NCBI RefSeq assembly: GCF_058153355.1
Contig: NZ_CM177019.1
Strand: one strand, 5' to 3'
DNA length: 64,000 bases
Shown here in pieces: positions 7,109-9,172 of the stretch (the stretch's first letter is position 1; each line of letters begins with the position of its first letter). Position numbers and translations under genes: made by a program. Below the pieces are notes generated by a model. The model ran no database searches, was not told the origin of the DNA, and saw nothing but the letters and a program-made list of their open reading frames with translations.

Positions 7109-7567
7109 TTATAGAGACAAGTCCTGCAGTCGCTCCGATAAGTCTCCAGTAGCCAACTGCTCTGCGTCGATATCTTCCTTGACCTGTTGATGCCAGGTTG
7201 TTTCATCCCACAGCTCAAACTTGTTGAACTGTCCAACCAGCATCACTTCTTTTGTCAGACCGGCATGTTGCCGCAGTACTGGCGCGATTAACAATCGACC
7301 GGCGCCATCCATCTGACATTCGCTGGCATGACCTAACAGAAGGCGCTGCACACGGCGCTCAACCGGGTTCATGCTCGACAGACGCGATAATTTTTGCTCG
7401 ATAATTTCCCATTCAGGCAGGGGGTAAAGCAGCAGGCACGGGTGATGAATGCCAATGGTGCAAACCATTTGACCGGCAGCGTTCTCAAGCAGCTGTTCCC
7501 GATAACGGGTAGGCACTGATAAGCGCCCTTTGCTGTCGAGATTGACTAACGTTGCTCCCCGGAACAT
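7109..7567 (-). CDS. mraZ: Transcriptional regulator MraZ
   Basis: Canonical start [19 protein letters not shown] at 7567 (152 aa); the ORF-track 164-aa version is an upstream extension. Confidence 0.93.
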
Positions 7568-7680
7568 GCCAGCCTCACCCCTTATTCCCACTTTGCCCCA
7601 CAATTTCCCACTGAAAGGAGTTTACGGAGCGGAGGAAAAGCTTGTCAAGCCAGTCACAAGGCATACCGAGGTAAAAAACC
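7568..7680 (-). promoter_or_regulatory. Pmra promoter region with three TGGGN direct repeats (MraZ operator-like)
   Basis: The minus strand reads ...cTTGACAag...TAAACT...gTGGGAaattgTGGGGcaaagTGGGAataag...ATG(mraZ): a sigma70-like -35/-10 pair followed by three TGGGN repeats at 10-bp phasing (window 7586-7610). Confidence 0.6.
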
Positions 7681-8167
7681 CGATGTTTACGGCTAATATC
7701 AGCGTTGTTTATTTTACGTCCAACGTGCGAAGCAAATTAACGTTATGAATAGCTGTAAGAAAAAATCCCTCATCGTCATCACCGTTTTAAAATGACTAAC
7801 TATTTTCCACAGCAAATATAAAGTGTCAGTTTGCGACGCGAGCGGCATTTTAGGACATATCTTCCCCGGTTAACAGTCCCTGTTGCGTCTGTGTGGCGCT
7901 TGATGCCAGCAGGTTTGCGCAAAAGCAAAGAAAAGTGTTTGTTAAATCGGCAATTCATCTCTGCATGTAACAAAATAATGCAAAAACGCTCTGTCAATAT
8001 TGCTTAATTATTGTGAATTTCAGCAGGTGAGTTAATTAATGGGCGGGTTTAAAAGCATTTATCAATAATAGCCAGGAATAGTCTTATTTACTTTAAGGAT
8101 ATTGATGTCCATTCCCGTACTCGACGCGCCAATGAGAAATTCACTGGCGCGTATTTTTGTTCGCGGC

Positions 8168-9172
8168 TTAGTTACGGCTGAGCACGCCGCGGCGATAGAG
8201 ATTACGTTTAATGCGTGTTAACCCAGGTTTTGGCTTACGCGGTTCGTCCAGGCTTGCCAGGACAATTTCCAGCACACGCTCTGCGACATCGCGGTGACGT
8301 TGAGCCACTGCCAGCACCGGGCACTGTAAGAAGTCGAGCAGTTCGTTATCGCCAAAGGTGGCAATTGCCAGGTCAGAAGGCAGTTTGCCATCGCGACGCA
8401 GCGTGACATCCATCACCCCTTGCAACAACGCAAACGACGTTGTGAACAGCGCCTGCGGCATCGGATGCGTTTCCAGCCATTTTTCGAATAACTGGGCAGC
8501 CGCCTCCCGCTCATAACTGTTGGCATAAAGGAAATGCACTTCGCGCGGATCATCTTTCCAGGCAGTACGGAAACCTTGCTCACGCAAGAAGCTCACAGAA
8601 AGCTCCGGCAGCGCGCCAAGATAAAGCACCGTCTCGGCGGGAAACTTACGTAACTCTTCCGCCAGCATTTCGGCATCATCCTGATCGGCACCAACCACGC
8701 TGGTGAAGTGTTCACGATCGAGGGCGCGATCCAGCGCGACAATCGGGAACGGGTCGTTAGCCCAGCGTTGATAAAAAGGATGCTCTGGTGGCAACGACGT
8801 CGAAACAATAATGGCATCAACCTGACGCTGTAGAAGATGCTCAATACAACGCATTTCGTTGTCTGGCTGATCTTCTGAGCAAGCAATCAGCAGTTGATAA
8901 CCCCGTTGCCGCGCCTGACGTTCAAGATAATTAGCGATGCGGGTATAGCTAGTGTTCTCCAGATCGGGGATCACAAGACCAATAGAACGTGTGCGTCCAG
9001 CACGAAGCCCAGCTGCCACGGCGTTCGGGTGGTAATTGTGCTCACGCACCACAGCCATGACTTTTTCAACGGTTTTGTCGCTCACACGGTATTGCTTCGC
9101 TTTGCCGTTAATAACATAGCTTGCAGTGGTCCGCGACACTCCCGCTAGCCGAGCGATTTCATCCAGTTTCAC
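8168..9172 (-). CDS. cra: Catabolite repressor/activator Cra (FruR), LacI family
   Basis: 334-aa ORF starting [38 protein letters not shown] with an N-terminal HTH; matches Cra over its full length. Confidence 0.97.

What the first reader, a model, noticed from the sequence alone, without database searches (positions are those of the whole stretch)
7586..7648. Three phased TGGGN direct repeats downstream of a TTGACA/TAAACT promoter ahead of mraZ
Read on the minus strand, the dcw-cluster promoter region shows TTGACA, a 17-bp spacer and TAAACT, followed by TGGGA-n5-TGGGG-n5-TGGGA. This matches the direct-repeat operator arrangement described for MraZ autoregulation of Pmra. The arrangement is perfectly phased at 10 bp.
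Basis: partly seen in the sequence, partly recalled or inferred. Interest (0 to 1): 0.3.

Follow-up and report, generated by a model that had tools for sequence, protein, structure and literature searches.

The report
Known MraZ operator at E. coli Pmra
This is the already characterised promoter of the E. coli cell-division gene cluster, with the three 10-bp-spaced boxes where the first gene's product, MraZ, binds to shut off its own operon; it is real and strongly conserved but ordinary.

Summary
On the minus strand, TTGACA (7648-7643) and TAAACT (7624-7619) are followed by TGGGA (7610-7606), TGGGG (7600-7596) and TGGGA (7590-7586), then the mraZ ATG at 7567. One detail is wrong: the promoter spacer is 18 bp, not 17. 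The triple repeat is unique in the 64-kb window (0 of 100 shuffles). The stretch is identical to E. coli K-12 MG1655 Pmra over 221 bp except for one base in the promoter spacer, so it is the locus where MraZ autorepression was described (Eraso 2014, seen only through citing papers). Two genome-wide TSS datasets put +1 at window 7612/7611. That is 6-7 nt after TAAACT and at the 5' edge of box 1, so the boxes span about +1 to +25. Across 75 distinct upstream regions from other Enterobacteriaceae, the invariant core is GTGG-N6-GTGG-N6-GTGG (75/75), not TGGG x3 (0/75). This matches the GTG(G/T)+6-nt box seen in MraZ-DNA cryo-EM structures. The most likely mechanism is that adjacent MraZ subunits bind successive major grooves and occlude the TSS. 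A G-quadruplex reading is possible only in E. coli and is not conserved. Verdict: already known, low interest.

The parts
7643..7648 (-). Pmra -35 hexamer TTGACA
   Evidence: Invariant in 76/76 enterobacterial upstream regions at 18-bp spacing from TAAACT.
7625..7642 (-). 18-bp promoter spacer AGCTTTTCCTCCGCTCCG. Window 7631 is C where K-12 has A.
   Evidence: Nearly invariant across genera; the reason for this is unexplained.
7619..7624 (-). Pmra -10 hexamer TAAACT
   Evidence: Invariant in 76/76. It lies at -12..-7 or -13..-8 relative to the mapped TSS.
7611..7612 (-). Transcription start of the mra (dcw) operon. A at 7612 corresponds to K-12 89589 and G at 7611 to K-12 89590.
   Evidence: Kim 2012 TSS table and the Cappable-seq GTF, mapped through L001. 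The older value of '38 bp upstream' would be 7605.
7602..7611 (-).
   Evidence: GTGG kept in 75/75 other species.
7592..7601 (-).
7586..7591 (-). The fifth base G is specific to E. coli.
   Evidence: E. albertii has GTGGTA.
7568..7585 (-). Rest of the 5' leader, with the Shine-Dalgarno region (GGGGTGAGG). It includes an in-phase degenerate fourth position, GGGG, at 7581-7578.
7109..7567 (-). mraZ, encoding the repressor (152 aa, two MraZ/SpoVT-AbrB-type domains; D11xxxR15 and D87xxxR91 intact)
   Evidence: Pfam PF02381 with 2 stretches, E=1.5e-46. 150/152 identical to K-12 MraZ. Solved homologues are 9qlr, 9qlg, 9sx6 and 1n0e.

Best explanation
This is the sigma-70 promoter Pmra of the E. coli dcw (mra) operon together with its autoregulatory MraZ operator. 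RNA polymerase uses TTGACA-18 bp-TAAACT and starts at window 7612/7611. By homology with the solved Mycoplasma MraZ-DNA complexes, each box is read in the major groove by the beta-strand 'cradle' (Lys13, Arg15 and the second DxxxR arginine) of one subunit. Neighbouring subunits of an opened MraZ ring bind cooperatively. Occupying +1 to about +25 excludes RNA polymerase from the start site or blocks promoter escape. MraZ thereby lowers transcription of mraZ-rsmH-ftsL-ftsI-mur... as negative feedback. Shown here: sequence identity with the K-12 locus, TSS position, box conservation, and an intact repressor gene. Taken from the literature: binding and repression. Inferred: the steric mechanism and the one-subunit-per-box geometry in E. 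coli.
For: The region is 220/221 identical to the K-12 Pmra region, and 5423 of 5426 complete E. coli genomes carry it between cra and mraZ, which is annotated 'division/cell wall cluster transcriptional repressor MraZ'. The motif is unique in the window and absent from shuffles. TSS values of 89589 (Kim 2012) and 89590 (Cappable-seq) map to the 5' edge of box 1, and the Klebsiella TSS has the same 45-nt leader geometry. The phylogenetic footprint shows -35, -10 and GTGG x3 invariant in 75 distinct enterobacterial upstream regions. The positions between the cores and most of the intergenic region vary. The 46 bp from TAAACT to box 3 are 100% identical in 4840 of 5420 E. coli genomes. The 4 of 4 sampled variants differ only at 7613, outside the boxes. 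MraZ has two PF02381 domains. In the literature, MraZ binds a repeated sequence downstream of the -10 and represses Pmra in E. coli. GTG(G/T) boxes with 6-nt spacers are contacted by one subunit each, there are three boxes in most bacteria, and the TSS lies inside box 1 in M. genitalium. The Mollicutes consensus is (AAAGTGKN3)3, and B. subtilis has three GTGG[A/T]G repeats.
Against: The primary paper (Eraso et al. 2014, PMC4010979) and the original TSS paper (Hara 1997) are not in the held library. Binding and repression in E. coli are therefore taken second-hand and from my own recollection of the abstract. A citing paper gives the TSS as 38 bp upstream of mraZ (window 7605), which is 6-7 nt from the genome-wide values. 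That position would leave TAAACT 13 nt from +1. No footprint at base resolution was seen here. According to a citing paper, E. coli mraZ deletion had no apparent phenotype, so the physiological weight of the feedback is unclear. This window's MraZ carries D39G and Y41H relative to K-12, with unknown effect on oligomerisation.
Confidence: 0.93

Rival explanations
1. The G-tract array acts as a G-quadruplex in the non-template DNA strand or in the 5' UTR RNA (GGG-N7-GGGG-N6-GGG-N5-GGGG, 7609-7577). This would modulate transcription or translation of mraZ independently of MraZ binding, or in addition to it.
For: A strict G4 motif, (G3+N1-7)x3 G3+, is present. It is one of only two in the 64-kb window. 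ViennaRNA with G-quadruplex energies puts a quadruplex in the leader MFE (-13.6 versus -11.6 kcal/mol). A published study claims a functional G4 just downstream of PmraZ in S. aureus.
Against: The motif depends on the E. coli-specific G at the fifth base of box 3. None of the 75 other enterobacterial upstream regions has a strict G4 motif, and only 1 has a relaxed one, whereas GTGG x3 is kept in 75/75. Selection therefore acts on the GTGG boxes and not on runs of three G. The G-richness follows automatically from the box consensus. There is no experimental evidence for E. coli.
Confidence: 0.05
2. The repeats are a chance or compositional feature of a purine-rich leader and Shine-Dalgarno region, with no operator function.
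For: The leader is G-rich up to the ribosome-binding site, and single TGGG tetramers are common (402 in the window).
Against: The triple at exact 10-bp phase is expected 0.011 times per window and occurs in 0 of 100 shuffles. The cores are invariant across genera while the neighbouring bases vary. The same architecture is an experimentally bound operator in several phyla.
Confidence: 0.01

Closest known systems
E. coli K-12 Pmra (mraZ1p) promoter with its MraZ operator (three direct repeats between Pmra and mraZ; Eraso et al. 2014, J Bacteriol 196:2053)
   Same: It is the same locus. Identity is 220/221 over the promoter, boxes and leader, with all three boxes, both hexamers and the leader identical. 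The gene order cra-mraZ-rsmH-ftsL-ftsI-murE is also the same.
   Different: There is one substitution in the promoter spacer (window 7631 C, K-12 A). The C is the majority state in the other E. coli and genera sampled. The encoded MraZ differs at D39G and Y41H.
MraZ boxes / MraZ-binding repeats of other bacteria: M. genitalium 4-box GTG(G/T)-N6 (cryo-EM, PMC12957436), Mollicutes (AAAGTGKN3)3, B. subtilis GTGG[A/T]G-N4 x3, B. cenocepacia 4 x 7 nt + 3 nt
   Same: These are direct repeats with a GTG(G/T) core at a 10-bp period. They lie immediately downstream of or overlapping the -10/TSS of the operon headed by mraZ, and they bind the same protein family. An A/T-rich 5' flank (AAA before box 3, ATT before box 2) resembles the Mollicutes AAAGTGK.
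   Different: There are three boxes rather than four. Enterobacteria extend boxes 1 and 2 to GTGGG. E. coli MraZ is reported as a dodecamer rather than an octamer. The reported outcome varies between organisms: repressor in E. coli, B. subtilis and M. genitalium, and a different role in some mycoplasmas.
G-quadruplex element reported downstream of PmraZ in S. aureus (PMC11796246)
   Same: A G-rich tract lies between the promoter and mraZ, and the E. coli sequence meets the formal G4 motif.
   Different: The G4 potential is not conserved even among close enterobacterial relatives. No E. coli experiment is known to me.

Membership tests
MraZ operator (MraZ boxes / MBRs) | Three or more direct repeats with a GTG(G/T) core at a 10-bp period | tested here: met
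   GTGG at 7611-7608, 7601-7598 and 7591-7588, each followed by a 6-nt spacer. This matches the box definition given.
MraZ operator (MraZ boxes / MBRs) | Located at the promoter of the operon headed by mraZ, overlapping or just downstream of the -10/TSS | tested here: met
   Box 1 starts 7 nt after TAAACT. The TSS at 7612/7611 comes from two datasets, and the ATG lies 20 nt after box 3.
MraZ operator (MraZ boxes / MBRs) | Cognate MraZ with two DxxxR DNA-binding motifs encoded immediately downstream | tested here: met
   PF02381 x2, E=1.5e-46. D11SKGR15 and D87GAGR91 are visible in the alignment.
MraZ operator (MraZ boxes / MBRs) | Box cores under purifying selection relative to neighbouring non-coding bases | tested here: met
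   GTGG x3 is kept in 75/75 distinct enterobacterial upstream regions, while the inter-core positions and the -10-to-box linker vary.
MraZ operator (MraZ boxes / MBRs) | Direct, sequence-specific binding by MraZ and MraZ-dependent repression of the promoter | not testable with these tools
   This rests on Eraso 2014 as reported by the citing papers and on sequence identity with the K-12 locus.
Sigma-70 promoter Pmra | -35 and -10 hexamers at 16-18 bp spacing, with a mapped TSS 5-9 nt after the -10 | tested here: met
TTGACA-18-TAAACT matches 10 of 12 consensus positions. The TSS lies 6-7 nt downstream.
G-quadruplex regulatory element | Four G3+ tracts with short loops, conserved among relatives | tested here: not met
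   The motif is present in the window but in 0 of 75 other Enterobacteriaceae under the strict definition. Actual folding is not testable here.

The most novel reading that the evidence does not exclude
In E. coli alone, the T/C/A-to-G change at the fifth base of box 3 completes a canonical four-tract G-quadruplex motif that is superimposed on the MraZ operator and lies in the first 35 nt of the transcript. The operator could then double as a lineage-specific G4 switch in DNA or RNA that competes with MraZ binding or tunes mraZ translation. Separately, the near-invariant 18-bp promoter spacer hints at a further, unidentified factor acting at Pmra.
Probability: 0.05. Interest if true: 0.4.

Novelty: already known. 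Interest (0 to 1): 0.08.

Why it matters
Pmra drives mraZ and rsmH and the essential division and cell-wall genes downstream of them, so its operator is a control point for bacterial division. Nothing here is new: it is the textbook E. coli locus. The work adds three minor refinements. First, the conserved recognition core is GTGG rather than TGGGN. Second, genome-wide TSS data put +1 at the edge of box 1, 44-45 nt rather than 38 nt upstream of the ATG. Third, the promoter spacer is 18 bp.

Tried and rejected
- I tried to read the primary papers: Eraso 2014 (DOI and PMC4010979), Hara 1997 (PMC179470), Mengin-Lecreulx 1998 (PMC107448) and Thomason 2015 (PMC4288677). None is held.
- Full-text searches for 'TGGGN' or 'three direct repeats' together with MraZ found nothing.
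- The Conway 2014 supplements are not held.
- The PPTP-seq paper gives no MraZ autoregulation data, because the mraZ guide was depleted by polarity.
- An Rfam scan of 7500-8250 found no known RNA family.
- The G-quadruplex reading was rejected as the main explanation because it is not conserved.
- A 21-codon ORF at 7779-7714, under an upstream conserved block, was rejected as a gene. Its start, frame and stop are not preserved in other genera.
- An RNA fold of the region from the upstream TSS to Pmra is no better than shuffles (z = -0.43).
- PdhR binding upstream of mraZ is reported as very weak and has no coordinates, so it was not pursued.

Full report
**Observation**

Read on the minus strand, window 7660-7560 is CTTGTGACTGGC-TTGACA-AGCTTTTCCTCCGCTCCG-TAAACT-CCTTTCAG-TGGGA-AATTG-TGGGG-CAAAG-TGGGA-ATAAGGGGTGAGGCTGGC-ATG.

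Exact coordinates:

| Element | Window coordinates |
|---|---|
| TTGACA (-35) | 7648-7643 |
| TAAACT (-10) | 7624-7619 |
| TGGGA | 7610-7606 |
| TGGGG | 7600-7596 |
| TGGGA | 7590-7586 |
| mraZ ATG | 7567-7565 |

The one error is the promoter spacer, which is 18 bp and not 17.

The pattern TGGG-N6-TGGG-N6-TGGG occurs once in the 64-kb window on either strand. Base composition predicts 0.011 occurrences. None of 100 dinucleotide-preserving shuffles contains one. The promoter matches 10 of 12 sigma-70 consensus positions.

**Context**

The downstream ORF (7567-7109) is MraZ. It has two PF02381 domains with E=1.5e-46, and both DxxxR motifs are intact. It is followed by rsmH, ftsL, ftsI and murE, and cra lies about 600 bp upstream.

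A 901-bp query across the region matches 5423 of 5426 complete E. coli genomes at 97-99.8% identity, always between cra and mraZ. Over 221 bp spanning promoter, boxes and leader, the window is identical to K-12 MG1655 except for one base in the promoter spacer: window 7631 is C and K-12 has A. The finding is therefore the K-12 Pmra/MraZ-operator locus itself, not merely something that resembles it.

**What is known**

The primary study (Eraso et al. 2014) is not in the held library. From my own knowledge, its abstract reports that purified MraZ bound DNA containing three direct repeats between Pmra and mraZ, and that excess MraZ repressed an mraZ-lacZ reporter.

Held papers that cite it say the following:
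[quoted passage not shown] The site lies downstream of the -10 box.
- The bound sequences are conserved 'MraZ boxes'.
- A 2026 cryo-EM study of M. genitalium MraZ-DNA defines the box as GTG(G/T) followed by six spacer nucleotides. [quoted passage not shown] Most bacteria have three boxes, and the TSS lies inside box 1.
- The Mollicutes consensus is (AAAGTGKN3)3.
- B. subtilis has three GTGG[A/T]G repeats with 4-nt spacers.

**Transcription start**

| Source | K-12 position | Window position |
|---|---|---|
| Cappable-seq (score 27.2) | 89590 (+) | 7611 |
| Kim et al. 2012 (29 reads, 45-nt leader, upstream 51-mer ending ...CCGTAAACTCCTTTCA) | 89589 | 7612 |
| '38 bp upstream of mraZ', quoted by a citing paper | 89596 | 7605 |

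Mapped through the K-12 locus, the two genome-wide values correspond to the A just before box 1 and the G of box 1. TAAACT then occupies -12..-7 or -13..-8, which is normal geometry. Klebsiella pneumoniae has the same 45-nt leader and start position.

The older value of 38 bp would be window 7605. That still lies inside the box array, but it is 13 nt from TAAACT. The genome-wide data fit the hexamers better. Either way the operator overlaps the start site, so the refutation condition is not met.

**Phylogenetic footprint**

A scan of one genome per species with the MraZ protein returned 80 Enterobacteriaceae loci at 88-95% protein identity. Results for the 75 distinct upstream sequences:
- TTGACA-18 bp-TAAACT is invariant.
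- GTGG-N6-GTGG-N6-GTGG is present in 75/75.
- TGGG x3 is present in 0/75, because box 3 is GTGG[T/C/A] everywhere outside E. coli. E. albertii has GTGGTA.
- The A/T triplets 5' of boxes 2 and 3 are also conserved.
- The positions after each core, and the linker between the -10 and box 1, vary.

The constrained recognition core is therefore GTGG, one base 5' of the TGGGN register, in agreement with the structural consensus.

In a 360-bp alignment, the Pmra-to-ATG stretch forms a conserved island against a variable intergenic background.

Within E. coli, the 46 bp from TAAACT to box 3 are 100% identical in 4840 of 5420 genomes. All four sampled single-mismatch variants carry C-to-T at 7613, outside the boxes. 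One genome (WS3294A) has a 5-bp deletion that removes the CAGTG of box 1.

**Mechanism**

Boxes at about +1, +11 and +21 lie on one face of the helix. By homology with the solved complexes, adjacent subunits of an opened MraZ ring should each insert their cradle into one major groove and bind cooperatively. Occupying +1 to +25 overlaps the downstream part of the RNA-polymerase footprint. Repression is therefore most likely by occlusion of the start site or by a block to promoter escape. This gives negative autoregulation of mraZ and the downstream dcw genes.

The status of each step is:
- Shown here: identity with K-12, TSS position, conservation of the boxes, and an intact repressor gene.
- Taken from the literature: binding and repression.
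- Inferred: the steric step and the one-subunit-per-box stoichiometry in E. coli.

**Rival: G-quadruplex**

The E. coli leader meets the strict G4 motif (GGGAAATTGTGGGGCAAAGTGGGAATAAGGGG, 7609-7577). It is one of two such motifs in the window, and a G4-aware fold places a quadruplex there. A paper claims a functional G4 downstream of PmraZ in S. aureus.

However, none of the 75 other enterobacterial sequences meets the strict motif, while all keep GTGG x3. G4 potential is therefore not what selection preserves. I keep it only as a low-probability, E. coli-specific add-on.

**Verdict**

The refinements are the GTGG core, +1 at the edge of box 1, and the spacer length. Interest is low.

Noticed in passing
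window 7876-7814 (minus strand): A second strongly conserved island lies in the cra-mraZ spacer: CTGTTA...CCTAAAATGCCGCTCGCGTCGCAAACTGACACTTTATATT. A TAAAAT hexamer sits at 7852-7847, and a Cappable-seq TSS at K-12 89360 maps to window 7841. This is probably a conserved upstream promoter about 230 nt before Pmra. K-12 has no annotated feature there.
   Followed up: partly
window 7765-7728 (minus strand): The conserved block TTTTTTCTTACAGCTATTCATAACGTTAATTTGCTTCGCAC overlaps a 21-codon ORF (7779-7714) in this window. That ORF's start, frame and stop are not preserved in other genera. There is no Rfam match, and the RNA fold is no better than shuffles. Its function is unexplained.
   Followed up: partly
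window 7642-7625 (minus strand): The 18-bp spacer between -35 and -10 (AGCTTTTCCTCCGCTCCG) is almost invariant across 76 enterobacterial sequences. That is unusual for a promoter spacer and hints at an additional constraint or bound factor.
   Followed up: no
window 7453-7445 (mraZ codons 39 and 41): MraZ in this window has G39 and H41 where K-12 has D39 and Y41. All 80 related loci have D39 with H or N at 41. G39 is therefore the unusual residue, and Y41 is the K-12/E. coli peculiarity.
   Followed up: partly
L086 (E. coli WS3294A, NZ_CP035819.1), aligned to window 7613-7609: One of 5420 E. coli genomes has a 5-bp deletion that removes CAGTG, meaning the TSS and the core of box 1. It is either a natural operator mutant or an assembly error.
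   Followed up: no
window 7581-7578, and loci such as L048, L054 and L058: An in-phase fourth position reads GGGG, one mismatch from GTGG. The distance from box 3 to the ATG falls into two classes, about 20 nt and about 30 nt, differing by one repeat period. This suggests gain or loss of a 10-bp unit.
   Followed up: no
window ~42519-42492 (minus strand): The only other strict G-quadruplex motif in the window is GGGGAGTTGGGGGTATAAGGGCGGAGGG.
   Followed up: no
window 7605 versus 7611/7612: The literature value of a TSS 38 bp upstream of mraZ differs by 6-7 nt from two genome-wide datasets giving 44-45 nt.
   Followed up: yes
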